Below are positions 1 through 47,632 of a stretch of 64,000 nt of DNA, one piece after another. The notes under the pieces were generated by a model that made no database searches, was not told the DNA's origin, and was given only the letters and a program-made list of their open reading frames with translations. Made by a program: the position numbers and the translations under genes. Source of the DNA: a virus. The stretch is taken from positions 1 to 64,000 of IMG/VR virus record IMGVR_UViG_3300042691_053485; one strand, given 5' to 3'. Every line of letters starts with the position of its first letter. Position 1 is the stretch's first letter.

Positions 1-414
1 CAAGAGTTTGACATTGATGCTTTGCTAAATGAGCTTTTCGACTTGAAGTTTTGGATGGATAATCTTGATGGTATCCCCGGGACAAGCAAGGTGGAAGCAC
101 TCCGTTTTTTGTTGTCAAAAACTATCATAAACCTTTCCAACAAAGGATTATCAGCACTTCCTGAATCCATCTGCAACTTGCAGAATTTGCAAGGGTTGGA
201 TTTATATAACAACAACCTGAGCCGCCTTCCTGAATCCATTGGCAACTTGCAGAATTTGGAAGAGTTAGATTTGGCTGATAACAAGCTGAGTAGTCTGCCA
301 AAATCCATGGCAAATTTGAACAATTTAGAACTGTTATATTTATCTAACAACATTTTTTCCAAAGCAGAGAGAATTATAGAAACGATACTCTCGAATTGTA
401 AAATACATTTTTGA
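1..414 (+). CDS. Leucine-rich repeat protein, 5'-partial (LRR paralog 1)
   Basis: Frame is open from base 1 (QEFDIDALLNELFDLKFWMDNL...), matching the cap of the 3520 paralog; three 23-aa LPESIGNLQNLxxLxLxxN repeats. Confidence 0.9.
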   Translation, partial: QEFDIDALLNELFDLKFWMDNLDGIPGTSKVEALRFLLSKTIINLSNKGLSALPESICNLQNLQGLDLYNNNLSRLPESIGNLQNLEELDLADNKLSSLPKSMANLNNLELLYLSNNIFSKAERIIETILSNCKIHF

Positions 415-430
415 CGAAAAAAAAAACAAA

Positions 431-988
431 ATGAAAGTACAATTATCGCAAAAGTCAACGACTGAATTTTTGAATTTGGCGGAACATCAATTATTGTTGA
501 TTCCAAGTTACCAAAGAGAATATTGTTGGTCTGACGAAAAAAAGCTTCTTTTGATTGATTCAATTTCAAAGGGGATTCCAATTGGACTTATACAGTTGCG
601 TAAACTGAGTGGGTTTCAGTACGAGATTATTGATGGTCAACACCGAATTAGAACAGTTTTGGAAGTAATAATGGGGAAGGGAGTATATTTTAACACCCTG
701 ACCCAAGATTTTTCTTTAGATGAAAAAGATTTCGAATATGCAAAATTAGTAAGGAGCGGGGGTTCAATCAACTCTTCATTACTAATCAATGACCCTGAAC
801 TTACAGAAAACATTGGAATTGCATTTGTAGAATTGTGGCAAAAATTTCGCTATATGGATTTACCTTGTGTTATTTATGAGGGGACAGATGAGGATGTTGA
901 AGTCGCATTCAATAGAATAAACTTATCAGGCGTTCAATTTACCCCGGATTTTAAAAAACTAGAAAACAGTAAAACATTTAAACTATGA
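431..988 (+). CDS. DUF262 (GmrS/ParB-like) domain protein
   Basis: Motifs IPSYQREYCW, LIDSI..GIPIG, IIDGQHR, FNRIN match DUF262. Confidence 0.8.
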   Translation: MKVQLSQKSTTEFLNLAEHQLLLIPSYQREYCWSDEKKLLLIDSISKGIPIGLIQLRKLSGFQYEIIDGQHRIRTVLEVIMGKGVYFNTLTQDFSLDEKDFEYAKLVRSGGSINSSLLINDPELTENIGIAFVELWQKFRYMDLPCVIYEGTDEDVEVAFNRINLSGVQFTPDFKKLENSKTFKL

Positions 989-2511
989 TACTTTTATTTA
1001 TTATTTTATTGGCGGCTTTTTCAGCTAATGGACAAATTTTTTTACACGGAACGACAGGAATACAAGGGGAACGGGTAACAAACTGTCTCGTTTCGACCTG
1101 TTCAGGCTCATACTTCGATAATGGAGGAAATGCAGGTAATTATGCAAACAATGTGGCAGGTGGACTTTATAGAGTTTTTTGCCCCAGTATGATTGGTGGA
1201 TGTGTTCGAGTCACATTTAACAGCTTTCGAACCGAAAGTGGATTCGACTATTTAACAATTGGAAATGGCGCTACTCAAAATTCGCCCGTATTTACCACCC
1301 CACCTGCAAATAACGTAACAGGTAGGATTACAGGAGTACTGGCAGTACCGTTTACTTACACCGCAAATAATCCAAGCGGATGTTTAACATTCCGCTTCAC
1401 AAGCGATGCAACAATTAATGATGCAGGTTGGTCAGCTTCTCTTTCCTGTGTGCCTTGTGCCACTCCGGGATTCGGTCCCAACGGAATAGACCCTAATGAT
1501 TGCACAAGAGCGATTCCTGTCTGTGGGAATAGTAATATTACAGGGAATGCAACGAGTCCAGGCTTACTTGCAGAGGGATGCCCATCAAATTCATGTCCTG
1601 CGGGAGGAGAAAATCATACACAATGGTATTTGCTAACAGTCCAATCTAGCGGTACGCTAAACTGGTTAATCGACCCGACTATCAACACTGACGACTATGA
1701 CTTTGCAGTTTACGGGCCGAATGTCACTTGCGGGAATCTTGGTAATCCGGTCAGATGTTCAGATTCGGGAAATACAGGGAATACTGGTTCAGATGCAGTA
1801 TCAATTGACAACATTGAAAATGTTACAGGAAACTCATTTGTAGCTCAAATGAATGTTATTGCAGGTCAAACATATTACATGGTCGTTGATGAATGGTCTG
1901 CAAATTCGGGAGGCGGATATACACTTTCATGGGGTGGGACGGCTTCCCTTTCTTGTTCCCCGATTCTACCAATTAAACTGTTACATTTTGGAGCTCAATA
2001 TCGTGAAAATAGCAGAGATGCTTACCTTTCTTGGGCAACGGCTTCTGAATACTTAAACCCCGGATTTACAGTTGAGAGGAGTTATGATGGAATCAATTTT
2101 GATAGTATAGGTTGGGTTGAAACCAAAGGGAACGGTACTACCCGTCAAGATTACGAGTTTATAGATGGATACCCGTCATCTAATGGCTATACCTATTATC
2201 GATTGAAATGGGTTGATAATAATCGCGATTCATACTCTGATATTGCCGCAATTGCCGTCGATAATCCTATCGAATACGGAATATTGGTTTTTCCGAATCC
2301 GACCAATAGTAAAATAACAATTCGAAATTTTTATACAGGAACTGCCTCCTTAGAAGTTTATGACATCTTGGGAAGAATAGTAATTTCAAAGGAAATTTTT
2401 AATAATTCAAATGATGAAATAGTTTCTTTGGAAAATTATCCCGCAGGCTCATACATCTTCAAAATTGAAGGTAGAACATTTTCAAAAGAATATCTTATTA
2501 TCAAAAAATGA
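985..2511 (+). CDS. Secreted CUB-like domain protein with T9SS type A (Por) C-terminal sorting domain
   Basis: Signal peptide MILLFIILLAAFSANGQ; CUB-like FNSFRTESGFDYLTIG...FRFTSD..GW; Bacteroidota LPIKLLHF Ig-like segment; CTD VFPNPT...VYDILGR...YPAGSYIFKI. Confidence 0.85.
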   Translation: MILLFIILLAAFSANGQIFLHGTTGIQGERVTNCLVSTCSGSYFDNGGNAGNYANNVAGGLYRVFCPSMIGGCVRVTFNSFRTESGFDYLTIGNGATQNSPVFTTPPANNVTGRITGVLAVPFTYTANNPSGCLTFRFTSDATINDAGWSASLSCVPCATPGFGPNGIDPNDCTRAIPVCGNSNITGNATSPGLLAEGCPSNSCPAGGENHTQWYLLTVQSSGTLNWLIDPTINTDDYDFAVYGPNVTCGNLGNPVRCSDSGNTGNTGSDAVSIDNIENVTGNSFVAQMNVIAGQTYYMVVDEWSANSGGGYTLSWGGTASLSCSPILPIKLLHFGAQYRENSRDAYLSWATASEYLNPGFTVERSYDGINFDSIGWVETKGNGTTRQDYEFIDGYPSSNGYTYYRLKWVDNNRDSYSDIAAIAVDNPIEYGILVFPNPTNSKITIRNFYTGTASLEVYDILGRIVISKEIFNNSNDEIVSLENYPAGSYIFKIEGRTFSKEYLIIKK

Positions 2512-3519: not shown

Positions 3520-4518
3520 ATGGACACGAAAAAACTTAATGAAATAATGAAGAAGCGTTTGAATGAAGGCTTCTTTGGGAGCATACAAGAGGAGGAGTTT
3601 GATATAAAGTCAAATCTCACAAGCCTTCTAAAATCCGGAACACCGGATAACATTGAACTTGCCATCATGGTAGCACAGGGTCAAGAGTTTGACATTGATG
3701 CTTTGCTAAATGAGCTTTTCGACTTGAAGTTTTGGATGGATAATCTTGATGATATTCCCCGGACAAGCAAGGTGGAAGCACTCCGTTTTTTGCTGTCAAA
3801 AACTAGCATAAACCTTTCCCGCAAAGGATTGTCGGAACTTTCTGAATCCATCGGCAACTTGCAGAATTTGCAAGGGTTGAATTTGTATAACAACAACCTG
3901 AGCAGTCTTCCGGAATCCATTGGCAACTTGCAGCATTTGCAAGTGTTAGATTTGTCTTATAACAACCTGAGCAGTCTTCCGGAATCCATCGGCAACTTGC
4001 AGAATTTGCAAAGGTTAGGTTTGGGTAACAACAACCTGAGCAGCCTTCCGGAATCCATCGGCAACTTGCAGAATTTGCAAGAGTTAAATTTGGATAACAA
4101 CAACCTGAGCAGCCTTCCGGAATCCATCGGCAACTTGCAGAATTTGAAAGGGTTGTATTTGCGTGGCAACAACCTGAGCAGCCTTCCGGAATCCATCGGT
4201 AACTTGCAAAATTTGATAAGATTGGATTTATTTGATAACAACTTGAGCAGCTTGCCTGAATCTATCGGCAACTTGCAGAATTTGGAACGGTTGTATTTGC
4301 GTGACAACAAGCTAAGCCGCCTTCCGGAATCCATTGGCAACTTGCAGAATTTGCAAAGGTTGTTTTTGGGTAACAACAACCTGAGCAGCCTTCCGGAATC
4401 CATCGGCAACTTGCAGAATTTGGTATGGTTGGATTTGTCCGGCAATACGATACCAACAGATACCCTAAGAAGGTTGAAAGTGGCACTCCCAAATTGCACT
4501 ATAAATGCAAAATTTTGA
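3520..4518 (+). CDS. Leucine-rich repeat protein (LRR paralog 2, about 9 repeats)
   Basis: Leader MDTKKLNE, cap LLKSGTPDNIELAIMVAQG, then 23-aa repeats LSSLPESIGNLQNLxxLxLxxNN. Confidence 0.95.
   Translation: MDTKKLNEIMKKRLNEGFFGSIQEEEFDIKSNLTSLLKSGTPDNIELAIMVAQGQEFDIDALLNELFDLKFWMDNLDDIPRTSKVEALRFLLSKTSINLSRKGLSELSESIGNLQNLQGLNLYNNNLSSLPESIGNLQHLQVLDLSYNNLSSLPESIGNLQNLQRLGLGNNNLSSLPESIGNLQNLQELNLDNNNLSSLPESIGNLQNLKGLYLRGNNLSSLPESIGNLQNLIRLDLFDNNLSSLPESIGNLQNLERLYLRDNKLSRLPESIGNLQNLQRLFLGNNNLSSLPESIGNLQNLVWLDLSGNTIPTDTLRRLKVALPNCTINAKF
3829..4446 (+). repeat. 69-bp tandem coding repeat array
   Basis: Near-identical AACAACCTGAGCAGCCTTCCGGAATCCATCGGCAACTTGCAGAATTTG scaffold every 69 nt with a variable spacer. 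Confidence 0.95.
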
Positions 4519-4530: not shown

Positions 4531-5178
4531 ATGAAAACTCCAAAAATCAAAATAACAGAATCCCAAATGAAGCTAGCATTTCAAAAGTTAGCTTAATTAC
4601 AGCTTTTGAAAGAAGAACTTTCAAATGAAGAATATGAGAATCTAAAGAATCTCATAAAAGCAGGAGGCGATAATTATAAAATTGCAAAAGAAATTGCAGC
4701 CGCTGAAGGAATAGACATCAAGGAGATTATTCAAGAGATAATTGATGAACTTGGATTTGATATAGATGAAATTTCTAAAGGTTTTTTTGAGTATGCAATT
4801 TGGTTGGAAGAAGAAAATTTGATTGACAGCATTATCGAAATCCAAGGTGAGGATTTTGATTTTACAAAAATTTTAAATGTTTCAAATATAGCTTCTCAAT
4901 CAGAGGTTAAAATAAAGAATTTGATATCGAGATTTCTTTTATCACTTACTCCAGATGTCCTATATGAATTAAGTGGGAGTAAAGATGGTGAAAACTGGGA
5001 CAACGAAATTGGGAGTTCATTCGCAGGTAAAGCTTTAGGGGGTGCTAGTTTCCATTTGAATGGCAACATCAGCCTTACAGATGATGCGAAAACACAAATA
5101 AAAAATGTATTAAAACAACGCGAATTTTGGCTTGATGGCATATATATAGGCAATGACTTAAAAATTCACTTGTACTAA
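4531..5178 (+). pseudogene. Hypothetical protein with an in-frame TAA at 4594-4596 (downstream ORF 4606..5178 intact)
   Basis: ATG 4531 is in frame with 4606: MKTPKIKITESQMKLAFQKLA*LQLLKEE; leader resembles 45879 MKNPRLIITEKQ. Confidence 0.55.
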
Positions 5179-5209: not shown

Positions 5210-6544
5210 TTAGATTAAACCGATTTTCTTTTTCTCAAAATAATTCTTCAGCCCATCACGTGTTAAAGGGATATTATTCTTCGTAAGCTCATGTTTGAAA
5301 TATTTCTCAATAATTTGACTTTCGATGTCAATATCAATTGAATCAGCTATCACAAATGCAAGTTCAATATTCCCAATATCTCCTGTTTTTATCATGGTTA
5401 AAATCATATCCACCTGCTCATCTGCTTCGATTTCAGTTTTATCATCGTTGTTTTGTGTTATCAAGGGGATATAGGCGTAGAGTCCTGCAAGTTTTTTCAT
5501 CATCTTCTCAGCAGCTCTATTCATAAGCTTTATTTCATGTCTATAGAAATCTTCATAACTTCCTGTGAGTTTAGACTTCTTTAGATATTTTTTTAGATAC
5601 TCTACTTGACTTCCTCCAACACCCAAAAAAGAAGTTGCTAATCCTGTTGTATTAGACTTAAATAACTCAAAAAGTTTTGAAAGAATAAGTTCAGCTATAT
5701 CATCGTTGCTATATTGCAATACCTCATAACCGTGAGTTTTAGCTAATTGACCACGAACCAAATCAGATTGTGCCGCGATTGAATCTAGCAACTTTTCATA
5801 GGTCATCTCTTTAGCACTCTCTAATTCATAGTAGGCTTCACTTTTTTTCAAAAACTGTTTAAATTCAGGCTGAGTTATACCCTGTTCAACGATTTTTGCA
5901 GCTAACTCAGGCACACGAACTGCATTTTCGATGTTATGTGTATAATACATCAAGAAAAAAAACTTCCTCAATAAACCAATATTGAATCTTTCATTTAATG
6001 CAGAGTTCACTGCTCCATATTTGATAGTCTCTCCTGCTGGACGGTCACTTTTTTTCGATACATCAAAAGAATGCGCCATTTCATGTGTTAAATGAGATAT
6101 CGCATCATTTTTTATACTATACATGAAATCGTAAAATTCTTTTGAGTCATAAGACTTTTTAACCCCTGGATTTATTCCAATATTAATTCCAATCGTAATT
6201 TGGTTTGTTGGATTATGAGATTTAACCCTGTATGATTTTCCATTTTTTGGAGGTGCAACAGTCTGGGCATAAGGTCTAAAATACATCCCTAAATATCGAT
6301 AATTTTCATCTCCTGACATGGATATAGGTGTGAAATCAAAAGAGAAATCAATAGTATCAAATGAATAATCTCCTATTTTGAATCGCCCTGGAATCTTGTG
6401 TTGATACGAAATATCATCAAAGGTTTTGGATTTTCTTATGAATTCCAAAACTTTTTCATAGAAATGCTTGCCCCAGTATAATATTTCATCCGGAACACCA
6501 AGCGCCTCATTTAACTGCTTCTTTATAAAATTTTTAATATTCAT
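5210..6544 (-). CDS. HExxH (zincin-like) motif protein
   Basis: HLTHEMAH motif; leader MNIKNFIKKQLNE; C-terminal copy of the cap module MIKTGDIGNIELAFVIA. Confidence 0.6.
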   Translation of the reverse strand: MNIKNFIKKQLNEALGVPDEILYWGKHFYEKVLEFIRKSKTFDDISYQHKIPGRFKIGDYSFDTIDFSFDFTPISMSGDENYRYLGMYFRPYAQTVAPPKNGKSYRVKSHNPTNQITIGINIGINPGVKKSYDSKEFYDFMYSIKNDAISHLTHEMAHSFDVSKKSDRPAGETIKYGAVNSALNERFNIGLLRKFFFLMYYTHNIENAVRVPELAAKIVEQGITQPEFKQFLKKSEAYYELESAKEMTYEKLLDSIAAQSDLVRGQLAKTHGYEVLQYSNDDIAELILSKLFELFKSNTTGLATSFLGVGGSQVEYLKKYLKKSKLTGSYEDFYRHEIKLMNRAAEKMMKKLAGLYAYIPLITQNNDDKTEIEADEQVDMILTMIKTGDIGNIELAFVIADSIDIDIESQIIEKYFKHELTKNNIPLTRDGLKNYFEKKKIGLI

Positions 6545-6557: not shown

Positions 6558-7346
6558 TTAAAATTCCACTTTACAATTTGGAAGTATAGCCTTCAACCTC
6601 TTTATTGCATTTGTGGGTATCGTATTGCCGGACAAATCCAACCGTTGCAAATTCTGCAAGTTGCCGAAGGATTCAGGAAGGCTGCTCAGGTTGTTGTTAT
6701 CCAAATCCAACACTTTCAAATTCTGCAAGTTGCCGATGGATTCCGGAAGGCTGCTCAGGTTGTTGTTATACAAATACAACCTTTGCAAATTCTGCAAGTT
6801 GCCGATGGATTCCGGAAGGCTGCTCAGGTTGTTGTTATACAAAACTAACCCTTGCAAATGCTGCAAGTTGCCGAATGATTCCGGAAGACTGCTCAGGTTG
6901 TTATAAGACAAATCTAACCCTTGCAAATGCTGCAAGTTGCCGAATGATTCCGGAAGACTGCTCAGGTTGTTGTTATACAAGCGCAACCATTCCAAATTCT
7001 GCAAGTTGCCGATGGATTCCGGAAGTGCTGACAATCCTTTGCGGTAAAGGTTTATGCTAGTTTTTGACAGCAAAAAACGGAGTGCTTCCACCTTGCTTGT
7101 TTGAGGAATGTCATCAAGATTATCCATCCAAAATTGCAAGTCAAAAAGCTCATTTAGCAAAGCATCAATGTCAAACTCCTGACCCTGTGCTACCATGATG
7201 GCAAGTTCAATGTTATCCGGTGTTCCGGATTTTAGAAGACCTGTGAGCTTTGATTTTATATCAAACACTTCCTCTTCTTGTATGCTCCCAAAGGAACATC
7301 CATCCAAACGCTTCTTCATTACTTCATTTAAATTATTAATATCCAT
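6558..7346 (-). CDS. Leucine-rich repeat protein (LRR paralog 3, about 6 repeats)
   Basis: Same leader, cap and 23-aa repeats as 3520; C-cap LDLSGNTIPT shared with 3520. Confidence 0.95.
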   Translation of the reverse strand: MDINNLNEVMKKRLDGCSFGSIQEEEVFDIKSKLTGLLKSGTPDNIELAIMVAQGQEFDIDALLNELFDLQFWMDNLDDIPQTSKVEALRFLLSKTSINLYRKGLSALPESIGNLQNLEWLRLYNNNLSSLPESFGNLQHLQGLDLSYNNLSSLPESFGNLQHLQGLVLYNNNLSSLPESIGNLQNLQRLYLYNNNLSSLPESIGNLQNLKVLDLDNNNLSSLPESFGNLQNLQRLDLSGNTIPTNAIKRLKAILPNCKVEF

Positions 7347-7358: not shown

Positions 7359-9083
7359 TTACAATGTTTCAAATGTTCTTTCATAATATCCAACTAGCTC
7401 CGATTCTGTTTTGAAATATCTGATATTTTCAGGAGCATAATTTACCATTTCACGCCCCTTTATGATTATGCCATCATAACCTAATTTGAGCATCTCATCT
7501 TCAATGGTTGTGTTTGCCTCGAAATGTCGGATGTCAAATGGAAGTCCGTGTTTTTCACAAAAGTCAATCATTAACTTCTGCCTCCACATTTCAGCTCCAT
7601 TTAATGAATCTACAACAATTGGGTTTTTAGGGACGGCATTTACCACAAAGTAAACATCTCCATATTGTTTAGCCATTGACTTATTACTAAGTGGCACGGT
7701 GTAAAGTCCTTTACCAAATTGACCGCTTACATTATTTGGCTGACCAAGGGTTTTAATCCCCCGCAATGTGACATTTTTGCGTTTCCACATTTTATAGTTA
7801 TCGACAGTTTCATTCATCATATCAACAGTATCTATAGATTGAATTATTATACATTTTGGATTATAGACAATATAATGTTTAAAGTTGCTTGCCGCCCCCC
7901 AGCTCGATTTGTATGGTTCACTTATCTCCAACCCATCAAATCCTAAATTCACCATACCATCCACAAAGGATTTGGCATCGTATAAAAACCAATCATACCA
8001 TACATTTAAAAAGAAATCCTTTTGGCTATCAACATCTGCGCTGTCTCGTATCGCTTGTTTTAGCCCTATTATAGGATTCATGTGCCAATTCTGTGCAATA
8101 CTTTGCCAAGTCTCCTCATCCTTGCTTTTTATCAGTTTGGCAGCAAGATTTAAATCGGTTTTAGAGACTCTTTTCCTATCAGAAATGATATTTTTTAATG
8201 TAAGATTGACGGTGTAAAGATATGCCCCATATTTCATTGCATCAGCCTTATCAGTTGTGAAGTATAAGCCTGGACCCTGCTCATCATTTGCATTTTCGCC
8301 GCCAACGTAATCTGTCACAAGAGAATTATGCTTTACATTTGAACCGTGGTATGCAGTTATTGAACTAGTTTTATCTAAAGATTCGGTCAGGCTAATTGTT
8401 TTTGGATATCGTATTAAACTACCCAAAAACCTGTAATCCTTATTCTTACCCTTATTTTTAACAAAGCCAAAACGCTTATAAAATTTTTCTAAAACAGAAA
8501 CAGGTGTCCCAAATGTGTTTTCAGGGGTTAATGTAATAATTACATGTTTTTTATCTGCCCAATCTATAATATCTTGCATTGCTTTAGAACCAATGCCTTC
8601 TCGCCTTTTATCCTTATCGACAATGATACTTTGGATATAAATCGCAGGAACATCTGATATGTGATATTTGACGTTTATTGAAATTGGATATTTTGACTCA
8701 ATATCTGTTATATGTTCAATTTCATTCAATAATGAGTCTTTAGCTTCAGAAAAAACAACTCTGACGGTTTCATTATTTTCATTAAGACAAAAAACCGCAA
8801 AATTTCCGGCTTCATCGATAGGAAATGGTGCATCTAATGGGACATCTTCACCATTATATTCACCAAATGAGCCTGCATTAGATTCTATGATTGCTTTTTC
8901 AGCCTCACTAATGAGTATATAGCCTCCAAAATACAGACTTCTCACTTCATTTACCAAGTCACACCATGCAATAGAACCCATACGAAATTCCGACTCATCT
9001 AAAGAAAGTTTATTCTCCAAATGATATTTCATACCCTCACTAAGTTGTAATTTTGCCTTATCTTCCTTTAAAATTAACCTCAT
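7359..9083 (-). CDS. Polyvalent multidomain protein: conserved phage N-domain, GNAT acetyltransferase and two ADP-ribosyltransferase-like domains
   Basis: GNAT KRREGIGSKAM...LEKFYKRFGF; ART-like AYHGS...GPGLYFT...AMKYG...GFDG; second TLRG...GKGLYT...AKQYG...GYDG. Confidence 0.7.
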   Translation of the reverse strand: MRLILKEDKAKLQLSEGMKYHLENKLSLDESEFRMGSIAWCDLVNEVRSLYFGGYILISEAEKAIIESNAGSFGEYNGEDVPLDAPFPIDEAGNFAVFCLNENNETVRVVFSEAKDSLLNEIEHITDIESKYPISINVKYHISDVPAIYIQSIIVDKDKRREGIGSKAMQDIIDWADKKHVIITLTPENTFGTPVSVLEKFYKRFGFVKNKGKNKDYRFLGSLIRYPKTISLTESLDKTSSITAYHGSNVKHNSLVTDYVGGENANDEQGPGLYFTTDKADAMKYGAYLYTVNLTLKNIISDRKRVSKTDLNLAAKLIKSKDEETWQSIAQNWHMNPIIGLKQAIRDSADVDSQKDFFLNVWYDWFLYDAKSFVDGMVNLGFDGLEISEPYKSSWGAASNFKHYIVYNPKCIIIQSIDTVDMMNETVDNYKMWKRKNVTLRGIKTLGQPNNVSGQFGKGLYTVPLSNKSMAKQYGDVYFVVNAVPKNPIVVDSLNGAEMWRQKLMIDFCEKHGLPFDIRHFEANTTIEDEMLKLGYDGIIIKGREMVNYAPENIRYFKTESELVGYYERTFETL

Positions 9084-11155: not shown

Positions 11156-11166
11156 TTGATTTTTCA

Positions 11167-11174
11167 TATAAATA
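11167..11174 (-). promoter_or_regulatory. TATTTATA late-promoter-like motif heading the minus-strand LRR/effector operon
   Basis: Recurrent motif at the usual spacing from the start codon. Confidence 0.6.
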
Positions 11175-15452: not shown

Positions 15453-15484
15453 ATAAAGGCGGTTAAATAACCGCCTTTATTTTT
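15452..15484. terminator. Bidirectional intrinsic terminator
   Basis: AATAAAGGCGGTT-AAAT-AACCGCCTTTATT between convergent genes. Confidence 0.85.
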
Positions 15485-41213: not shown

Positions 41214-41256
41214 GCTGAACCGATATGATATTTATTTGTAATATGCAATAAATAAG

Positions 41257-41826
41257 ATGAAGAAGTTTATAAAAAGTCAATTAATCTCCCTTAACGAGCA
41301 ATATAATAGTAATATCAATGTTAATTTTTGGAGATGGTTTGGTGACAGTAAAATTGTTGATAATTCCGCCAACCCGCAAATTGTATATCATCGCTCGAAT
41401 AGCGATTTTTCATCATTTGACCCCAAAAAACTTGGTAGTGCAACTGATAAAGGAATCCGAGGAATGGGCTACTATTTTAGTACAAGTGAAATAGCCAATC
41501 GGGGCTATGGAAGCAACTTATATGAAGTTTATCTTAAAATCGAAAACCCTTTCGATTTGTTACGCTTTGATTCTATGGAAGAACTTGCTGAATATCTTGA
41601 GGTTAGTCCTTCAATCTTTATTGATGATAAGGAAAGATTTGGTGGCAGGTCTGTTAAAGTTTATTCGGGATTTGAGGGACTTTTAAGTGATAGCGTAAGT
41701 GATAAAGGTTACGATGGAATCATACATGGGACAACGCATGAAATCGTGGCATTTTATCCCAATCAAATAAAATCAATTCATAACGATGGGACTTGGGATT
41801 GGGGGGACAATAATATTTATTCTTAA
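41257..41826 (+). CDS. ADP-ribosyltransferase-like protein (ART-PolyVal-like)
   Basis: VYHRS..F..FD, GYYFS, YEVYLKIENP, GYDG, EIVAFYPNQIKS; leader MKKFIKSQLISLNE. Confidence 0.75.
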   Translation: MKKFIKSQLISLNEQYNSNINVNFWRWFGDSKIVDNSANPQIVYHRSNSDFSSFDPKKLGSATDKGIRGMGYYFSTSEIANRGYGSNLYEVYLKIENPFDLLRFDSMEELAEYLEVSPSIFIDDKERFGGRSVKVYSGFEGLLSDSVSDKGYDGIIHGTTHEIVAFYPNQIKSIHNDGTWDWGDNNIYS

Positions 41827-41831: not shown

Positions 41832-43210
41832 GTTAAAGAATATTTGAACAGAGTGTAACATTTCTAAACATTGGTATATTAATTGCCACATGGTGTATAA
41901 GTTTTTCGGATTATAGCAGATAAAATAAGCAGAAAATGCAATACAAGTCATTAAAGATAAGATTAGAGCCTACAAGGTTGCAGGGGCAGATGTTTGCAAA
42001 ACATGCAGGCACAGCTCGTCATGCCTACAATCAGGCTTTGAGCTATTGCAATGACTTATTCAAAGATGGGAAATCAATCCCTTCCGCCATCACACTTCAC
42101 AAATGGCTTGTAGCAACGGTGAAAAAGGAGTACTCTTGGTATTATGAGGTGTCAAAATGTGCCCCACAACAAGCACTTAGAAATCTCGAAACGGCATACA
42201 AGAACTTTCACCGCCTGCAAAAGCAATCCGGATACAAGCTTCTTCACTATAAAATTGTAAATGGAGTCAAAGTATCCACAGGTCTACAAGGATTACCAAG
42301 ATACAAGAAGAAAGGAAGAGGCGATTCATTCTATTTAGAAGGAACTGCAAAATACCCCATAAAAATTGAAAGAAACAAGGTTAAACTACCAAAAATAGGA
42401 TGGGTAAAACTATCCGAAACTTTGGATGTTGAATCAATAAAAAACTGTACGATAAGCAGGACTGCTGACCACTGGTTCATCTCATTCAGAGTCGAACACA
42501 TTCCAGCTATCACAAAAAAGAAAGAACTTGTCGTTGGTGTTGACTTGGGTGTAAAAACCTTGGCAACACTCAGTAATGGAGAAATATTCAAAAATGAAAA
42601 GCCTTATAGAAAGGCAAAAGAAAAACTCAGAAGGCAACAAAAAGAGGTGAGCAGAAGATTTGTTAGGAGTGCTGAAAACCAAAGCAACAACTACAAAAAA
42701 TCTGTTCAAAAGCTTGCAAAAATACATGCAAGGGTTGCAAATGTAAGAAAGGACTGTCTTCACAAACTGACGACCTATCTGACCAAGAACTTTGAAGTGG
42801 TGGTGATAGAGGATTTGAAGGTGAAGAACATGGTGAAAAACAAAAAGCTTGCATCAGCAATCCTTGACGGTGGATTTTTTGAGTTCAAAAGGCAACTTCT
42901 CTACAAAAAAGCATGGTATGGAGGAGAAGTCATTTTGGCGGACACCTTTTTTGCCAGCAGCAAGTTGTGTTCGAACTGCGGCAACAAGAAACCAAGTTTG
43001 AAACTTTCCGAGAGAAAATATGCTTGCAATTCCTGCCACCTCGAAATTGATAGGGATTTGAATGCGAGCATCAATCTGAAAAATTTGGCGGTGAGTTCCA
43101 CCGTGTCAGCCCTTGGAGATGGGAGTTCGGTGCTTTTCAGCACCCAGCCTGTCGATGAATTGGGAACAAAAATTGCACATGTTTAACTTTGTGCAAGTTT
43201 TTGGGAACGG
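41832..43210 (+). mobile_element. Non-autonomous IS607-like element (TnpB only)
   Basis: GG dinucleotide at both proposed junctions; roughly 10-bp-spaced AACA repeats at left end; structured 3' region ending GTTTTTGGGAACGG. Confidence 0.65.
41936..43186 (+). CDS. tnpB: RNA-guided endonuclease TnpB
   Basis: HTH_OrfB-like N-terminus; GVDLGVK, VIEDL, DRDLNAS (D-E-D intact); zinc ribbon CSNC...CNSC. Confidence 0.93.
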   Translation: MQYKSLKIRLEPTRLQGQMFAKHAGTARHAYNQALSYCNDLFKDGKSIPSAITLHKWLVATVKKEYSWYYEVSKCAPQQALRNLETAYKNFHRLQKQSGYKLLHYKIVNGVKVSTGLQGLPRYKKKGRGDSFYLEGTAKYPIKIERNKVKLPKIGWVKLSETLDVESIKNCTISRTADHWFISFRVEHIPAITKKKELVVGVDLGVKTLATLSNGEIFKNEKPYRKAKEKLRRQQKEVSRRFVRSAENQSNNYKKSVQKLAKIHARVANVRKDCLHKLTTYLTKNFEVVVIEDLKVKNMVKNKKLASAILDGGFFEFKRQLLYKKAWYGGEVILADTFFASSKLCSNCGNKKPSLKLSERKYACNSCHLEIDRDLNASINLKNLAVSSTVSALGDGSSVLFSTQPVDELGTKIAHV

Positions 43211-43283: not shown

Positions 43284-43856
43284 ATGAAAGTTTTAATATC
43301 TGAAGAATTTGCAAAAAACTATATGTTTTTTCAAAATATCCAAACCATACACAATCTTACAGGAAAGATGTTATCTGCTAACGAAAAAGAAGTAGATGAA
43401 CTCCTTATGAAACATAATTGGGCTATTGACCATATTGCAACCTCAGCGGATGATGTCCAAGAGGTTGCAAATTTTATTTTAGGTGAATTAGAAGAATCAT
43501 TCGAAGCTTTGAAATCTCATAAGAAATTTAAAAACATCGTTGGAGAGTCTTATAAATTTCAAATTAAGGAGGCTGAATATCAAGGAAAAAAAGTGCAATT
43601 AAATAAGCCGTTTAGGCAAGCATATAGCGGAAAGAAATTTGCAGTTTATGTCAAAACCCCAAAGGGTAACGTTAAAAAGGTGAGATTTGGTGCACAGGGT
43701 TATAAGGTTAGAAACGATAACAAAGGAGCTGCAAAAAGCTTTAAGAAACGTCATAAGTGTGACCAAAAAACAGATAAAACTACTCCGGGATATTGGAGTT
43801 GTAATATTGCAAGATACAGAAAAGCATTGGGGCTTTCCTCTGCATCTCAATGGTAA
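43284..43856 (+). CDS. Conserved phage hypothetical protein
   Basis: Leader MKVLISEE; C-domain EAEYQGKKVQLNKP...KKFAVYVK...VRFG...RHKC...GYWSC; TATTTATA at 43266-43273. Confidence 0.75.
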   Translation: MKVLISEEFAKNYMFFQNIQTIHNLTGKMLSANEKEVDELLMKHNWAIDHIATSADDVQEVANFILGELEESFEALKSHKKFKNIVGESYKFQIKEAEYQGKKVQLNKPFRQAYSGKKFAVYVKTPKGNVKKVRFGAQGYKVRNDNKGAAKSFKKRHKCDQKTDKTTPGYWSCNIARYRKALGLSSASQW

Positions 43857-43871
43857 AAATTTAAACTTCTT

Positions 43872-44864
43872 ATGAATATAAAAAAGTTAAACGAAACATT
43901 CGACCGAATGAGCAAATCAGGCTTGTTCGGGAAACAAAGACCAATTCTATCCGAGAATTGGAGTCAAGAAGACATCCAAAAAATGAAGCAAATGCTTGCT
44001 TCAGGGGATATGGATAATATTAAGCTCGTTGAGCAGATGACTTCACCTCATCTTTTCAGAGATTTGGTGGATAGTGTTTATGGGGAGTTATTATCCTTTG
44101 CAAATAAAAAAGGCAGAGATGCTGGAGACATAACTTGGCTTTTTAGTAGGGGGGTATTGTATGCAAACAATACGCAACTAAGTACTGTTCCTGAAAACAT
44201 TGGAATTCTGAGTGGATTAGTGACATTGTTTTTGGAAGACAACAACCTGAGCAGCCTTCCGGAATCCATCGGCAACTTACATAATTTGGAAAGGTTAAAT
44301 TTGGGTAACAACAACCTGAGCAGCCTTCCGGAATCCATCGGCAACTTGCAGAATTTGCAACGGTTGGATTTATTCGGTAATAATCTGAGCAGCCTGCCGG
44401 AATCCATCGGCAACTTACATAATTTGGAAAGGTTAAATTTGGGTAACAACAACCTGAGCAGCCTTCCGGAATCCATTGGCAACTTGCAGAATTTGCAAGA
44501 GTTGGATTTGTCTAACAACAAGCTGAGTAACCTTACTAAAGGCTTCGAAAAATTGACAAAATTGACAAAACTCGGTTTAGCTCACAATAACCTCATTATA
44601 TTACCTGAAAGTATCAATAATTTAAGCCTATTAGAGATGTTAGATTTAACAGGAAATGGATTGCACACTCTTTCCGAAAGTATAGGAAATTTGAGTCAAT
44701 TAACAAATTTGAGTTTACGTAATAATAATCTGGAAACTCTCCCTCATAGCATCAGTAGCTTGAGTAGATTGAAGCGTTTATCGTTAGGGAGGAACAAATT
44801 TTCAAATACTGAAATTGAACGTATACAAACAATGCTTCCAAACTGTGGAATTTTTAATTTTTAA
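43872..44864 (+). CDS. Leucine-rich repeat protein (LRR paralog 6, about 9 repeats)
   Basis: Leader MNIKKLNE; 23-aa repeats with an internal 138-nt-offset duplication. Confidence 0.95.
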   Translation: MNIKKLNETFDRMSKSGLFGKQRPILSENWSQEDIQKMKQMLASGDMDNIKLVEQMTSPHLFRDLVDSVYGELLSFANKKGRDAGDITWLFSRGVLYANNTQLSTVPENIGILSGLVTLFLEDNNLSSLPESIGNLHNLERLNLGNNNLSSLPESIGNLQNLQRLDLFGNNLSSLPESIGNLHNLERLNLGNNNLSSLPESIGNLQNLQELDLSNNKLSNLTKGFEKLTKLTKLGLAHNNLIILPESINNLSLLEMLDLTGNGLHTLSESIGNLSQLTNLSLRNNNLETLPHSISSLSRLKRLSLGRNKFSNTEIERIQTMLPNCGIFNF

Positions 44865-44871
44865 TGTCATT

Positions 44872-45876
44872 ATGGATATAAAAAAAGTAAACGAAACATT
44901 CGACCGAATGAGCAAATCAGGCTTGTTCGGGAAAATACAAGAGGAGGTGTTTGATATAAAATCAAAGCTCACAAGCCTTCTAAAATCCGGAACACCGGAT
45001 AACATTGAACTTGCCATCATGGTAGCACAGGGTCAAGAGTTTGATATTGATGACTTGGTAGAAGAGCTTTTTGACTTGCAGTTTTGGATGGATAATCTTG
45101 ATGGTATTCCCCGGACAAGCAAGGTGGAAGCACTCCGTTTTTTGCTGTCAAAAACTATCATAAACCTTTACAGCAAAGGATTGTCGGAACTTTCTGAATC
45201 CATCGGCAACTTGCAGCATTTGCAAGAGTTGTATTTGTATAACAACAACCTGAGCAGCCTTCCGGAATCCATCGGCAACTTGCAGAATTTGAAAGTGTTG
45301 AATTTGGGTGAGAACAAGCTGAACAGCCTTCCGGAATCCATCGGCAACTTGCAGCATTTGCAAAGGTTGGGTTTGTATAACAACAACCTGAGCAATTTGC
45401 CGGAATCCATCGGCAACTTGCAGAATTTGCAAAGGTTAGGTTTGGGTAACAACAACCTGAGCAGCCTTCTGGAATCCTTCGGCAACTTGCAGAATTCGGA
45501 AACGTTGTCTTTGGCTAACAACAACCTGAGCAGCCTTCCTGAATCCATCGGCAACTTGCAGAATTTGCAAGAGTTGTATTTGTATAACAACAACCTGAGC
45601 AGCCTTCCGGAATCCATCGGCAACTTGCAGAATTTGAAAGGGTTGTATTTGCGTGGCAACAACCTGAGCAGCCTTCCGGAATCCATCGGTAACTTGCAAA
45701 ATTTGATAAGATTGGATTTATTTGATAACAACTTGAGCAGCTTGCCTGAATCTATCGGCAACTTGCAGAATTTGCAAGGGTTGAATTTGGGTAACAATAA
45801 TTTTCCTGAAGCTGAAAAGGAACGCATACAAAGAATGCTCCCAAACTGTAAAATATCTTTTAAACGAATACCATAA
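44872..45876 (+). CDS. Leucine-rich repeat protein (LRR paralog 7, about 9 repeats)
   Basis: Start MDIKKVNE at 44872; cap and repeats as in 3520. Confidence 0.95.
   Translation: MDIKKVNETFDRMSKSGLFGKIQEEVFDIKSKLTSLLKSGTPDNIELAIMVAQGQEFDIDDLVEELFDLQFWMDNLDGIPRTSKVEALRFLLSKTIINLYSKGLSELSESIGNLQHLQELYLYNNNLSSLPESIGNLQNLKVLNLGENKLNSLPESIGNLQHLQRLGLYNNNLSNLPESIGNLQNLQRLGLGNNNLSSLLESFGNLQNSETLSLANNNLSSLPESIGNLQNLQELYLYNNNLSSLPESIGNLQNLKGLYLRGNNLSSLPESIGNLQNLIRLDLFDNNLSSLPESIGNLQNLQGLNLGNNNFPEAEKERIQRMLPNCKISFKRIP
45181..45800 (+). repeat. 69-bp tandem coding repeat array
   Basis: Same scaffold as 3829-4446; 45584-45774 is identical to 4094-4284. Confidence 0.95.
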
Positions 45877-45878
45877 TA

Positions 45879-46766
45879 ATGAAAAACCCAAGACTTATCA
45901 TAACCGAAAAACAGGCAAAATTCGCCAAAAAAAACCTTTTTGAGGATGATAACCCCGAAGAAGTTCAAAAACTTCGTGAGATGTTATTCAGTGGTTCAAA
46001 GGAAACTATTAAAATTGCCCTTGAAGTTTCAGCTTCTTTGGGATATGATATTTCTTTGGATGTGTTCCCTGAATATATAGAACTTCAAAAGTTTTTCGTA
46101 ACACAAAAACCCGCAGGATTAGAGGATTCTTTCTATTCTATCCCAAATATAAAAAACTCACAAGCTCTTTCGGATTGGATTTTATCAATGTCCCAACGAC
46201 AATCTGCATATTTTGCAAATGTTAATAGTAATAATCTTCCACAGGGTGTTGCTATACTAGCGTCTTTGGTTGACTTAACATTGTCTGGCACATTTAGAGT
46301 CTTACCACCTGAATTAGGGAGTTTGCAGAATCTGCAAAGAATACATATTCGAAAGGGGATGTCGTTATCTGACATAAGTATCGTTTCACAACTTCAGAAT
46401 TTGCAGACCTTTGTTTGCAGTAACACTCGGACTTCAGACATAACACCCTTTTATAACACAAATATCAGAACGTTAAAGGTTGCAGATTCAAGAGTGAGTA
46501 AGACCGTGGTTATAAAAAATATGCCAAATTTACAAAGTTTACAATTAAACGGTAATATTGGTCTTAGGAATTTAGTTATTGAATCTGCCCCTAACCTAAT
46601 TGATATTTTCATCGAGGATTGCGACTTAGATGTACTTCCTGAAATATCTCACCTTCCAAACCTCCAACAAATTAATATACCTATTACAAGTCGAACTAAA
46701 CCACAAATTGCGGCTTATGTAGAAAAGAATAAAAACGTAAATGTTGTTATAAATCGATGGGCGTAA
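45879..46766 (+). CDS. Divergent LRR protein (LRR paralog 8)
   Basis: LPPELGSLQNLQRIHI, LQNLQTFVC, MPNLQSLQL, LPNLQQINI. Confidence 0.8.
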   Translation: MKNPRLIITEKQAKFAKKNLFEDDNPEEVQKLREMLFSGSKETIKIALEVSASLGYDISLDVFPEYIELQKFFVTQKPAGLEDSFYSIPNIKNSQALSDWILSMSQRQSAYFANVNSNNLPQGVAILASLVDLTLSGTFRVLPPELGSLQNLQRIHIRKGMSLSDISIVSQLQNLQTFVCSNTRTSDITPFYNTNIRTLKVADSRVSKTVVIKNMPNLQSLQLNGNIGLRNLVIESAPNLIDIFIEDCDLDVLPEISHLPNLQQINIPITSRTKPQIAAYVEKNKNVNVVINRWA

Positions 46767-46768
46767 AA

Positions 46769-47632
46769 ATGGATATAAATAACCTTAACGAAATAATGAA
46801 GAAGCGTTTGGATGAAGGCTTCTTTGGGAACATACAAGAGGAAGATGAGTTTGATATAAAATCAAAGCTCACAGGTCTTCTAAAATCCGGAACACCGGAT
46901 AATATTGAACTTGCCATCATGATAGCACAGGGTCAGGAGTTTGATATTAATGACTTGGTAGAAGAGCTTTTTGATTTGAATTTTTGGATAGATAATCTCA
47001 AACGCATTCCCCAGACAAGCAAGTCCGAAGCTCTCAGTTTTTTGCTTGCACAAACTGCGATTGACCTTTCCAACAAAGGATTGCCAGCACTTCCTGAATC
47101 CATCGGCAACTTGCAGAATTTGGAATGGTTGAATTTAGATGGAAACAACTTGAGCAGTCTACCCGAATCCATTGGCAATTTGCATAATTTGAAATGGTTG
47201 GGTTTGAATGAGAATGACCTGCACAGACTTCCTGAATCCATCGGCAACTTACAGAATTTGGAATGGTTGGGTTTGTCTAACAGCAACCTGAGTAACCTGC
47301 CTGAATCAATCAGCAACTTGCAGAATTTAAAAAAGTTGTGGTTGGCTGGCAACAACTTGAATAGCCTGCCTGAAAGCATTGGAAATTTGCAGAATTTGGA
47401 AATGTTGGATTTAGGCCGCAATAACCTGAATAGCCTACCTGAAAGCATTGGAAATTTGCAGAATTTGGAAAAGTTGTGGTTGGAATCTAACAATTTAAGA
47501 AGTGTTCCTGAATCATTATACCTATTAAGGGGGTTGAACCGTTTAAACACAAGTGAAAACCCATTGCCTGAAGAAATTCAAGCCTCAATAAAGAAATTTT
47601 GCATTTACACCTCAATTGCACACGACCTATAG
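46769..47632 (+). CDS. Leucine-rich repeat protein (LRR paralog 9, about 7 repeats)
   Basis: Start MDINNLNE at 46769; same cap; 23-aa repeats. Confidence 0.95.
   Translation: MDINNLNEIMKKRLDEGFFGNIQEEDEFDIKSKLTGLLKSGTPDNIELAIMIAQGQEFDINDLVEELFDLNFWIDNLKRIPQTSKSEALSFLLAQTAIDLSNKGLPALPESIGNLQNLEWLNLDGNNLSSLPESIGNLHNLKWLGLNENDLHRLPESIGNLQNLEWLGLSNSNLSNLPESISNLQNLKKLWLAGNNLNSLPESIGNLQNLEMLDLGRNNLNSLPESIGNLQNLEKLWLESNNLRSVPESLYLLRGLNRLNTSENPLPEEIQASIKKFCIYTSIAHDL

What the first reader, a model, noticed from the sequence alone, without database searches (positions are those of the whole stretch)
1..47632. Phage-encoded combinatorial LRR repertoire (VLR-like cassette shuffling)
Seen: nine LRR paralogs (1, 3520, 6558, 9361, 10241, 43872, 44872, 45879, 46769). 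At least five share a near-invariant 69-bp cassette in which the scaffold (NNLSSLPESIGNLQNL) is conserved while the x positions of LxxLxLxxN vary (QGLNLY, QVLDLS, QRLGLG, KGLYLR, IRLDLF, EWLRLY, KKLWLA and others). Repeat counts run from 3 to 9. Known: those x residues form the concave ligand-binding face of LRR solenoids, and jawless-vertebrate VLRs diversify by LRR cassette assembly. Inference: this is a recombination-diversified binder library, for example against host defence proteins or against eukaryotic partners of the host.
Basis: partly seen in the sequence, partly recalled or inferred. Interest (0 to 1): 0.9.

Follow-up and report, generated by a model that had tools for sequence, protein, structure and literature searches.

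The report
Phage family of variable LRR binders
A large uncultured T4-like phage, probably of Bacteroidota, carries about 19 related genes for small leucine-rich-repeat proteins whose predicted binding face differs in almost every repeat; this is an inherited gene family shaped by recombination and selection, not an antibody-like assembly programme, and what the proteins bind is unknown.

Summary
All nine ORFs are LRR proteins built from in-register 69-bp units. The whole 184.5-kb contig (an IMG/VR phage fragment, about 68% complete) has 19 matches to the family's N-terminal domain, in three clusters and at both contig ends.

Five codons per unit (p2, 3, 5, 7, 8, on the concave face) carry nearly all amino-acid variation. 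Their dN/dS is about 1.1-1.7, against 0.17 for the scaffold. "Near-invariant" overstates the scaffold: silent-site diversity is about 0.3.

The VLR-like reading is not supported:
- Every unit lies in a complete ORF, so there are no silent donor cassettes.
- No reverse transcriptase or deaminase is on the contig.
- 56 of 62 units have a unique binding-face signature, so cassettes are not reused combinatorially.
- In near-identical phage contigs from related samples the concave codons are unchanged.

What differs between those contigs is unit number (exact 69- or 138-nt indels) and recombinant blocks between paralogs.

Best reading: an inherited, recombining family of cytoplasmic or virion-borne binders. 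A T4-like leader and neighbouring ART-PolyVal genes suggest they may be packaged and injected, but this is untested.

The evolutionary mode is known from the Flavobacterium psychrophilum LRR locus and fungal NLR repeats. This scan has reported similar phage LRR families on other DNA.

The parts
1..414 (+). LRR gene B: a 3' fragment (end of N-domain, 2 canonical units, C-cap) cut by the contig start
   Evidence: Translation, units, N-domain profile match at 1-123
3520..4518 (+). LRR gene C, 332 aa: leader, helical N-cap, 8 canonical 69-bp units plus capping units
   Evidence: Pfam LRR_14 at 9e-51; TRF 8.6 copies; shares a 191-nt exact block with gene H
4531..5178 (+). N-domain paralog without LRRs. 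The open ORF is 4606-5178 (TTG start); the leader-like part upstream is separated from it by an in-frame TAA
   Evidence: N-domain profile E 6e-18 with 1 TAA; no Pfam family
5210..6544 (-). 444-aa protein of unknown family with a basic ...LNE leader and a weak N-domain-like stretch (5288-5500)
   Evidence: E 7e-7; no Pfam family
6558..7346 (-). LRR gene D, 262 aa, 5 canonical units; this is the protein that was modelled
   Evidence: Pfam; AlphaFold pLDDT 90.9; Foldseek to Leptospira LRR proteins and SHOC2
7359..9083 (-). GNAT acetyltransferase plus ART-PolyVal-like protein with an MRLILKE leader, between LRR genes D and E
   Evidence: Pfam; PHROGs
9361..10239 (-). LRR gene E, a divergent member (likely start at MNTKK; the ORF runs to 10275)
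   Evidence: Pfam; N-domain profile 2e-24
10241..11167 (-). LRR gene F, a divergent member with an MK..LLSE leader
   Evidence: Pfam LRR_8 at 1e-29; N-domain profile 2e-22
11205..12398 (-). TnpB (OrfB_IS605 plus Cas12f1-like TNB) next to LRR cluster 1
36164..36934 (+). T4 gp21-type prohead core serine protease (Peptidase_S77), the enzyme that would cut (L/I)xE leaders
   Evidence: Pfam 1.9e-20
41257..41826 (+). ART-PolyVal ADP-ribosyltransferase with leader MKKFIKSQLISLNE; ATATTTAT motif at 41228
41936..43186 (+). TnpB copy next to LRR cluster 2; 91% identical to the copy at 70310-71560
43284..43856 (+). Leader-bearing protein of unknown family. It is the first gene of the tightly packed co-oriented run 43284-48454 and sits behind the ATATTTAT motif at 43265
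43872..44864 (+). LRR gene G, 330 aa, with an internal 2-unit (138-nt) tandem duplication that is absent from a 99.9%-identical contig, L020
   Evidence: (period 138, 96% matches)
44872..45876 (+). LRR gene H, 334 aa, a mosaic: G-like leader, C-like N-cap and units
   Evidence: the L014 chimera
45879..46766 (+). LRR gene I, a divergent member with an irregular LRR and leader MKNPRLIITE
   Evidence: Pfam LRR_4 at 2.6e-10; N-domain 3e-22
46769..47632 (+). LRR gene J, 287 aa, 6 units
47633..48454 (+). ART-PolyVal ADP-ribosyltransferase with leader MKTFIRKILRE. Its start codon directly follows the stop of LRR gene J
   Evidence: Pfam 2.6e-17

Best explanation
This is an inherited multigene family with 19 matches to its N-domain profile on a phage contig that is about 68% complete. 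The phage is T4-like in its head genes and probably infects Bacteroidota. A typical member has four parts: (a) a roughly 28-residue flexible leader, an amphipathic basic helix followed by an acidic linker with L-N-E and I-Q-E motifs; (b) a roughly 65-residue helical N-cap that is specific to this rare family; (c) two to nine 23-residue LRRs of the SHOC2/Leptospira type; (d) a C-terminal capping helix. Diversity arose over evolutionary time by three ordinary processes. First, whole 69-bp units were gained and lost through unequal recombination. Second, blocks were exchanged between paralogs and between strains. Third, amino-acid replacements accumulated at five concave-face positions per unit, at or above the silent rate. 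These three steps are shown. The function is inferred: the proteins act inside the infected cell as a panel of protein binders aimed at variable host (or rival-phage) proteins, for take-over or counter-defence. Also inferred is that, like T4 internal proteins and Alt, they may be loaded into the head through the leader, trimmed by the gp21-type protease and injected with the DNA.
For: Phage identity: the large terminase (TerL), portal protein, gp23-like major capsid protein (MCP) and Peptidase_S77 prohead protease are present, and the source is an IMG/VR record. Host hint: a T9SS Por_Secre_tail protein at 985-2511, and the closest cellular LRR homologues are from Bacteroidota and the wider FCB (Fibrobacterota-Chlorobiota-Bacteroidota) group. 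Architecture: AlphaFold pLDDT 90.9, residues 1-28 disordered, helices at 30-94, then a regular solenoid. The best structural matches are Leptospira LIC11098 (46% identity) and SHOC2. Family size. Variation is confined to p2, 3, 5, 7 and 8. Tree-based counts give concave dN/dS of 1.1-1.7 and scaffold dN/dS of 0.17-0.18. Among unit pairs with identical scaffolds, 3.6 of 10 first and second codon positions differ against 0.22 of 5 third positions. Recombination and unit indels: a 191-nt exact block in C and H; L020 equals the G locus minus exactly 138 nt, with 1 other difference in 1269 nt; L015 equals D minus one unit; L013 and L014 are mosaics; L016 and L017 match the contig end at 100% and then diverge. 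Intracellular or virion location: no signal peptide, whereas the nearest cellular homologues are lipoproteins. Effector context: three ART-PolyVal genes with similar leaders are interleaved with the LRR genes. The run 43284-48454 sits behind the ATATTTAT motif that also precedes the terminase, protease and scaffold-like genes (26 sites against 10 expected). A basic...[LIV]xE motif occurs in the first 22 residues of 22% of ORFs against 4-9% in later windows. A second, complete 368-kb jumbo phage has 15 matches to the same N-cap profile; those inspected carry it at the very N-terminus and most are followed by LRRs.
Against: No expression, virion proteomics or binding data exist. dN/dS at concave sites is only about 1-2 in unbiased pooled estimates, so full relaxation of constraint cannot be separated from positive selection. 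The very high ratios come from pairs chosen for identical scaffolds. The leader resemblance to the T4 capsid-targeting sequence is a short, low-information motif, and two members (68009, 68932) and all members in the second phage lack it. All sequences are short-read metagenome assemblies of near-identical repeats, so single arrays or chimeras such as L014 could be misassembled. The read-level check could not be run.
Confidence: 0.6

Rival explanations
1. Programmed diversification: a VLR-like copy-choice assembly from donor cassettes, or a DGR-like targeted mutagenesis of the concave codons (first two bases of AAY/AAG-type codons), creating new binders within a phage population.
For: Variable codons keep their third base (p2 NAA, p3 NNG, p5 and p7 NNT, p8 NNC). 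Units with identical scaffolds differ at 3.6 of 10 first and second codon positions. The contig is only about 68% complete, so an enzyme could lie off-contig.
Against: No unit copy lies outside complete ORFs, so there is no template repeat or donor bank. RVT_1, APOBEC_N and dCMP_cyt_deam are all absent. Scaffold adenines next to the variable codons, including the AAC AAC at p9-p10, do not vary: 3 of 14 A sites vary against 14 of 40 non-A sites. Orthologous units in near-identical strains carry no concave changes. Conservation of the third base matches silent-site conservation in scaffold codons (0.25 against 0.30), which is what descent plus selection on amino acids predicts.
Confidence: 0.04
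2. The proteins are virion-surface adhesins or accessory receptor-binding modules. The conserved N-cap docks them onto a fibre, collar or capsid, and the variable LRR face binds host envelope structures. Many paralogs would then widen or switch host range.
For: A conserved N-terminal module with a variable C-terminal binding module is the layout of multi-tailspike phages (my knowledge). LRR/beta-helix domains on tail-associated DUF7941 proteins are proposed host-recognition elements in phage Goslar (PMC13742148). The run 43284-48454 shares the promoter-like motif of structural genes. Bacteroidota surfaces are variable, as in the F. psychrophilum LRR locus (PMC10392669).
Against: The genes lie among ART-PolyVal, GNAT and TnpB genes rather than with tail genes. 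The N-cap has no detectable similarity to any known virion-attachment domain, though the best fold match of Z 4.8 is uninformative. The N-terminal leader with (L/I)xE motifs fits head-internal cargo better than tail parts.
Confidence: 0.2
3. A neutrally expanding repeat family: duplication-prone 69-bp repeats and nearby TnpB elements inflate copy number, and the concave positions vary only because they are unconstrained. No binder repertoire is under selection.
For: Pooled concave dN/dS is close to 1 (1.05-1.7). Each of the three clusters has a TnpB gene beside it. One member is degraded by an in-frame stop (4531-5178). Other metagenomic LRR arrays show the same pattern.
Against: All canonical members keep intact frames, caps and the asparagine ladder, with scaffold dN/dS of 0.17. 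A phage genome is under strong size economy, yet it keeps many intact copies. Concave residues are conserved between strains where the arrays are orthologous, which argues that they matter. The family recurs in a second jumbo phage.
Confidence: 0.12
4. Much of the apparent array diversity (repeat numbers, chimeras, alternative continuations) is an artefact of short-read assembly across near-identical repeats.
For: Both contig ends fall inside LRR genes. L016 and L017 diverge exactly at a repeated ...SLSHLPES junction. The related contigs are short, 1-2.7 kb.
Against: Independent assemblies from other samples reproduce arrays exactly: L016 and L017 are 100% identical over 1.2-1.4 kb including three units, L021 is 99.9% identical, and L020 is identical apart from one substitution and one clean 138-nt indel. 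The continuations of L016 and L017 are not copies of any paralog on the contig; the best match is 86%. Each 69-bp unit carries a distinctive 21-nt variable segment that 150-nt reads can bridge (inference).
Confidence: 0.05

Closest known systems
Tandem LRR surface-protein locus of Flavobacterium psychrophilum (Altae-Tran et al. 2020, PMC10392669; read)
   Same: Up to 19 tandem genes, each with 2-14 LRRs of about 22 residues and hypervariable positions on one face. Strains differ in gene number, repeat number and repeat sequence, with signs of extensive recombination. The lineage is Bacteroidota. The authors also draw the VLR analogy.
   Different: Those are host proteins with a signal peptide and a T9SS C-terminal domain, and the locus is littered with gene fragments. 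The phage proteins have no secretion signals, have a different N-terminal leader and helical N-cap, are spread over three clusters, and show no fragment debris. There is no nucleotide-level similarity to cellular LRR genes.
High-internal-conservation repeats of fungal NLRs (HET-D/HET-E NWD family; Paoletti et al. 2007, PMC1805685)
   Same: A ten-member family whose repeats are exchanged within and between paralogs, with variable repeat number and about four surface positions per repeat under diversifying selection. This is the same evolutionary mode.
   Different: These are WD40 repeats, not LRRs, in eukaryotic self/non-self receptors with NACHT domains. RIP (repeat-induced point mutation) may add mutations there, and nothing comparable is seen here.
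Leptospira LRR proteins LIC11098, LIC10831, LIC12234, LSS01692 (PDB 4u08, 4u06, 4tzh, 7yjw) and SHOC2
   Same: Best structural and sequence matches for the solenoid: Foldseek E 9e-15, 46% identity, rmsd 0.5 A over 171 columns. The 23-residue LxxLxLxxNxLxxLPxxIxxLxx unit is the same.
   Different: Only about 171 of the model's 262 residues aligned, which fits the solenoid alone, so the phage leader and N-cap appear to have no counterpart. Those proteins are cellular: secreted or surface proteins in Leptospira and a signalling scaffold in eukaryotes.
Variable lymphocyte receptors of lampreys and hagfish
   Same: Small single-domain LRR binders with variable concave residues. VLR structures appear among the weaker fold matches (rank 34 and below).
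   Different: VLR diversity is made somatically by copying silent flanking cassettes into an incomplete gene with AID/APOBEC-type deaminases (my knowledge). None of these features is present here.
T4 internal proteins IPI-III and Alt (capsid-targeting sequence, cut by gp21 after (L/I)xE, injected with the DNA; my knowledge)
   Same: Short N-terminal leaders with L/I-x-E. A gp21-type protease is encoded at 36164-36934. ADP-ribosyltransferases with the same kind of leader lie beside the LRR genes.
   Different: There is no sequence homology to the T4 internal proteins. Packaging and cleavage are untested. The canonical LRR leader is longer, about 28 residues with two candidate sites.
Diversity-generating retroelements
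   Same: A phage-encoded way to vary a binding face; variable codons with a fixed third base look superficially like AAY-templated variation.
   Different: No reverse transcriptase, no template repeat, no adenine specificity, and no variation between near-identical strains. Known targets are C-type lectin or Ig folds, not LRRs (my knowledge).

Membership tests
Leucine-rich repeat proteins, 23-residue SHOC2/Leptospira-like class | Tandem LxxLxLxxNxL-type units that score above Pfam LRR thresholds | tested here: met
   LRR_14, LRR_8, LRR_4 or LRR_1 above the curated cut-off in all nine ORFs; units spaced by exact multiples of 23 residues
Leucine-rich repeat proteins, 23-residue SHOC2/Leptospira-like class | Curved solenoid with a parallel beta sheet on the concave side | tested here: met
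   AlphaFold pLDDT 90.9 with one short strand and one short helix per unit; Foldseek to 4u08 at E 9e-15 and to SHOC2 at E 1e-11
VLR-type somatic cassette assembly | An incomplete recipient gene flanked by banks of silent partial LRR cassettes | tested here: not met
   The nhmmer unit profile finds all significant units inside complete ORFs; hits outside have E above 0.1
VLR-type somatic cassette assembly | An AID/APOBEC-family cytidine deaminase | tested here: not met
   No APOBEC_N or dCMP_cyt_deam_1 match on the contig at E up to 1. The contig is about 68% complete, so absence from the whole genome is not proven
VLR-type somatic cassette assembly | Different assembled genes in individual genomes of one lineage | tested here: inconclusive
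   Related contigs differ by unit indels and chimeras, but these are assemblies from different samples.
Diversity-generating retroelement | A reverse transcriptase with a nearby template repeat | tested here: not met
   No RVT_1 match; no non-genic copy of the unit
Diversity-generating retroelement | Variation confined to template adenines | tested here: not met
   Scaffold adenines vary at 3 of 14 sites against 14 of 40 non-A sites; AAC AAC at p9-p10 is fixed
T4-type capsid-targeted, gp21-processed internal proteins | A prohead core protease of the gp21 family in the genome | tested here: met
   Peptidase_S77 at 1.9e-20, coordinates 36164-36934
T4-type capsid-targeted, gp21-processed internal proteins | An N-terminal leader ending in (L/I)xE | tested here: inconclusive
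   Motifs are present (LNE, IQE) in a disordered leader and are enriched 3-5 fold at ORF starts. But the motif is short, and two members lack a leader
T4-type capsid-targeted, gp21-processed internal proteins | Presence in the mature head and cleavage of the leader | not testable with these tools
   Needs virion mass spectrometry or N-terminal sequencing
High-internal-conservation repeat families (concerted evolution plus diversifying selection) | Repeat units exchanged within and between paralogs, with variable repeat number | tested here: met
   A 191-nt out-of-register block in C and H, intragenic duplications, and 69- and 138-nt indels between strains
High-internal-conservation repeat families (concerted evolution plus diversifying selection) | A few surface positions per repeat with dN/dS above 1 | tested here: inconclusive
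   Concave dN/dS is 1.05-1.4 by Nei-Gojobori counting (NG86) and 1.1-1.7 by parsimony counts on trees, against 0.11-0.18 for the scaffold. No likelihood site model was available

The most novel reading that the evidence does not exclude
Large T4-like phages of Bacteroidota load a diversified panel of LRR binders into the capsid, together with ADP-ribosyltransferases, and inject them with the DNA. Each binder would neutralise a different polymorphic host immune sensor or effector. That would make the family a germline-encoded counterpart, on the virus side, of LRR-based immune receptors, renewed by unit recombination.
Probability: 0.2. Interest if true: 0.85.

Novelty: new variant of a known kind. 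Interest (0 to 1): 0.55.

Why it matters
LRR families with a fixed scaffold and a hypervariable face are a hallmark of immune receptors in plants, jawless vertebrates and fungi, and of surface proteins in some bacteria. Finding about 19 such genes in one phage, and 15 matches to the same N-cap profile in a second complete jumbo phage, puts this strategy on the virus side of the conflict. My library searches found no paper describing it for phages. The proteins are small, well predicted and soluble-looking, so the central question, what a phage needs many different binders for, can be tested directly by virion proteomics and pull-downs. If the targets are host defence proteins, the family would be a natural source of specific inhibitors and of a compact binder scaffold.

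Tried and rejected
- The look-up of encoding contigs found no record for the closest relatives P0002, P0004 and P0005, which include a 63.7-kb JGI contig. Synteny with that relative could not be examined.
- Megablast of 22 kb against isolated phages gave no match. The N-domain had no tblastn match in the phage collection.
- N-cap identity: no Pfam family and no usable ESM Atlas hit. The structure search of the isolated N-domain model (pLDDT 68) gave a best Z of 4.8, which is only generic helical bundles. Its fold and role stay unknown.
- The N-domain profile against 1.84 billion representatives found only 64 hits at E up to 1e-3. Of the 46 that were scanned, 29 carry LRRs, and there is no recurrent fusion to another effector domain. 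The idea of a general delivery module for diverse cargo was dropped.
- The uncultured huge phage LR756500.1 has many LRR places but no match to this N-domain, so it holds a different LRR family.
- Recent capture from a host: there is no nucleotide-level similarity to any fetched cellular LRR locus. This was dropped.
- DGR and VLR mechanisms were rejected; see rival explanations and membership test.
- Pooled Nei-Gojobori dN/dS was not taken as proof of positive selection, because of saturation and transition bias. The striking identical-scaffold pairs are conditioned on low divergence and were not used as an omega estimate.
- No complex prediction was run, because no specific partner is proposed.

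Full report
WHAT THE WINDOW IS

The window is the first 64 kb of a single 184,534-bp contig. The contig is an IMG/VR virus record, classed as linear and estimated by CheckV to be about 68% complete. It encodes a large terminase (TerL), a portal protein, a gp23-like major capsid protein (MCP) and a T4 gp21-type prohead protease.

The nearest isolated phages are distant. Microcystis phage Mel-JY01 and Flavobacterium phage immuto share 43-45% identity over the C-terminal part of the capsid protein and 28% over the terminase. Megablast finds nothing.

Two results point to a Bacteroidota host. A protein at 985-2511 ends in a type IX secretion sorting domain. The closest cellular LRR homologues come from Bacteroidota and the wider FCB (Fibrobacterota-Chlorobiota-Bacteroidota) group. 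This host assignment is an inference.

THE OBSERVATION

Tandem Repeats Finder reports period-69 arrays with almost no indels.

I extracted 62 units of 23 residues, always in register. Of these, 46 fit the canonical pattern L..L.L....L..L.ES[IF].NL... Amino-acid entropy is 2.1-3.0 bits at positions 2, 3, 5, 7 and 8 and 0-1.1 bits elsewhere.

In an AlphaFold model (pLDDT 90.9) the short beta strand of each unit covers positions 3-5. The variable residues therefore sit on and beside the concave sheet.

Further members lie at 68009, 68932, 72209, 73143, 73734, 74535, 183005 and 183928. A profile of the shared N-terminal domain matches 19 places on the contig. Both contig ends fall inside LRR genes.

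HOW VARIABLE, AND BY WHAT PROCESS

"Near-invariant" overstates the scaffold. Silent third-position diversity is about 0.3 in scaffold codons and 0.25 in the variable codons. First and second positions of the five variable codons reach about 0.56.

Pooled Nei-Gojobori estimates give scaffold dN 0.08 over dS 0.72, and concave dN 0.75. Parsimony counts on trees give concave dN/dS of 1.1-1.7 and scaffold dN/dS of 0.17-0.18. The concave face therefore changes roughly ten times faster than the scaffold, at or somewhat above the silent rate. This is compatible with diversifying selection but does not prove it.

Variable codons keep their third base (NAA, NNG, NNT, NNT, NNC). Among 18 unit pairs with identical scaffolds, 3.6 of 10 first and second positions differ against 0.22 of 5 third positions. 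Other first-stage notes on this genome read that as DGR-like mutagenesis. I tested that reading and reject it for four reasons:
- There is no reverse transcriptase on the contig.
- No copy of the unit lies outside complete ORFs.
- Scaffold adenines, including the AAC AAC directly after the last variable codon, are fixed.
- Orthologous arrays in almost identical phage contigs from related samples show no concave changes. The counts are 0 of 60 sites for the G locus, none in six units of gene C, and 0 of 40 in units 2-6 of gene D.

What does differ between those contigs is unit number and block structure:
- L020 equals the G locus with one substitution and a clean 138-nt (two-unit) deletion.
- L015 lacks one unit of gene D.
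- L013 has an 87%-identical N-terminal part joined to a roughly 99%-identical array.
- L014 joins a C-like 5' part to the H 3' end and the downstream gene.
- L016 and L017 match the contig end at 100% and then continue with two different arrays and different downstream genes.

Within the contig, genes C and H share a 191-nt exact block that is two units out of register, and genes G and H carry internal duplications.

Cassettes are nevertheless not reused combinatorially: 56 of 62 units have a unique five-residue signature. There is also no deaminase of the kind VLR assembly needs. The family fits the concerted-evolution-plus-selection mode described for fungal NLR repeats (PMC1805685) and for the Flavobacterium psychrophilum LRR locus (PMC10392669). 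Several unrelated metagenomic LRR arrays show the same contrast between concave and silent sites.

ANATOMY AND RELATIVES

Residues 1-28 form a low-confidence leader: a helix at 3-15, then an acidic linker. Residues 30-94 form a confident helical cap, and the solenoid and a C-terminal helix follow.

The solenoid is closest to Leptospira LRR proteins (46% identity) and SHOC2. VLRs rank far lower.

The N-cap is rare. Only 64 of 1.84 billion representatives match at E up to 1e-3, and 29 of the 46 scanned carry LRRs. Such genes occur in tandem on other contigs. A complete 368-kb jumbo phage with terminal repeats has 15 matches to the N-cap profile. Those I inspected carry the cap at the very N-terminus without the leader, and most are followed by LRRs. 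The cap has no recognisable fold relative.

The phage proteins have no signal peptide, whereas the closest cellular homologues are lipoproteins. There is no nucleotide-level similarity that would indicate recent capture from a host.

LIKELY FUNCTION (INFERRED)

The LRR genes are interleaved with three ART-PolyVal ADP-ribosyltransferase genes, one of them fused to a GNAT domain. The ART proteins and several unknowns begin with basic amphipathic leaders ending in (L/I)xE, for example MKTFIRKILRE and MKKFIKSQLISLNE. The canonical LRR leader contains KRLNE and IQE.

Such motifs are three- to five-fold enriched at ORF starts, and the phage has the protease family that cuts them in T4. The tightly packed co-oriented run 43284-48454 sits behind an ATATTTAT motif. 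That motif is enriched (26 sites against 10 expected) and also precedes the terminase, protease and scaffold-like genes.

By analogy with T4 internal proteins and Alt (my knowledge), the LRR proteins may be head cargo injected with the DNA, acting as binders of variable host proteins. This is untested. A surface-adhesin role with the N-cap as anchor remains a serious rival. PMC13742148 proposes LRR-bearing tail-associated proteins in phage Goslar.

CAVEATS

Independent assemblies do reproduce several arrays exactly.

This scan has already reported similar phage LRR families on other genomes. Those notes are not independent evidence, but they suggest that the phenomenon is widespread in large phages.

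VERDICT

The VLR-like programme is not supported. The family is a new phage variant of a known evolutionary kind, with an open and testable function.

Noticed in passing
window 985-2511 (+): A 508-aa phage protein ends in a type IX secretion C-terminal sorting domain (Por_Secre_tail, 4e-11). This is a marker of Bacteroidota, so it hints at the host and suggests that the phage makes the infected cell export a protein.
   Followed up: partly
window 431-988 (+): A 185-aa protein holds only the N-terminal (DUF262-type) domain of the GmrSD type IV restriction enzyme (7e-21), directly after an LRR gene. It may act against rival modified-DNA phages or as a decoy.
   Followed up: no
window 11205-12398 (-), 41936-43186 (+); genome 70310-71560 (-) = L011:6310-7560: There are three TnpB (OrfB_IS605 plus Cas12f1-like TNB) genes, one beside each LRR cluster. 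The copies at 41936 and 70310 are 91% identical over about 1.4 kb, with unrelated flanks.
   Followed up: partly
window 41257-41826, 47633-48454, 7359-9083: Three ART-PolyVal ADP-ribosyltransferase-like genes, one fused to a GNAT acetyltransferase domain. All have basic (L/I)xE leaders like that of T4 Alt.
   Followed up: partly
window, e.g. 13249, 18238, 29332, 33565, 36142, 36972, 41228, 43265, 48556: The octamer ATATTTAT occurs 26 times against 10 expected. In many cases it lies about 20 nt upstream of a start codon on the coding strand, including structural genes. It is a candidate phage (late?) promoter element.
   Followed up: partly
genome 183137-184534 (L012) with L016 and L017: Two contigs from sister samples are 100% identical to the last 1.2-1.4 kb of the contig. 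They then continue with different LRR arrays and different downstream genes, and they reveal at least one further LRR paralog beyond the contig end. This is a structural-variation hotspot and probably the reason the assembly stopped.
   Followed up: partly
G001 (368,109-bp IMG/VR contig with terminal repeats; L008, L095-L097): A complete, unrelated-looking jumbo phage has 15 matches to the same SG..N(I/L)ELA N-cap profile, in three clusters. Those inspected carry the cap at the very N-terminus, most followed by divergent LRRs, and none has the 28-residue leader.
   Followed up: partly
window 15463-17877 (-): An 804-aa ClpB/ClpA-like double AAA+ protein (AAA_2 at 1e-58, ClpB_D2-small). This is an unusual chaperone or unfoldase for a phage.
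   Followed up: no
L125 (Saprospira sp. MAG bin, 6.3-kb contig): A leaderless N-cap plus LRR protein of this family sits on a short contig binned with a lake Saprospira genome (Bacteroidota). It is either a phage contig caught in the bin or a host-side copy.
   Followed up: no
genome 66928-67941 (-) = L011:2928-3941: A serine beta-lactamase-fold hydrolase (Pfam Beta-lactamase, 1e-25) with an MKFKSILSE leader, next to the leaderless LRR pair at 68009 and 68932.
   Followed up: no
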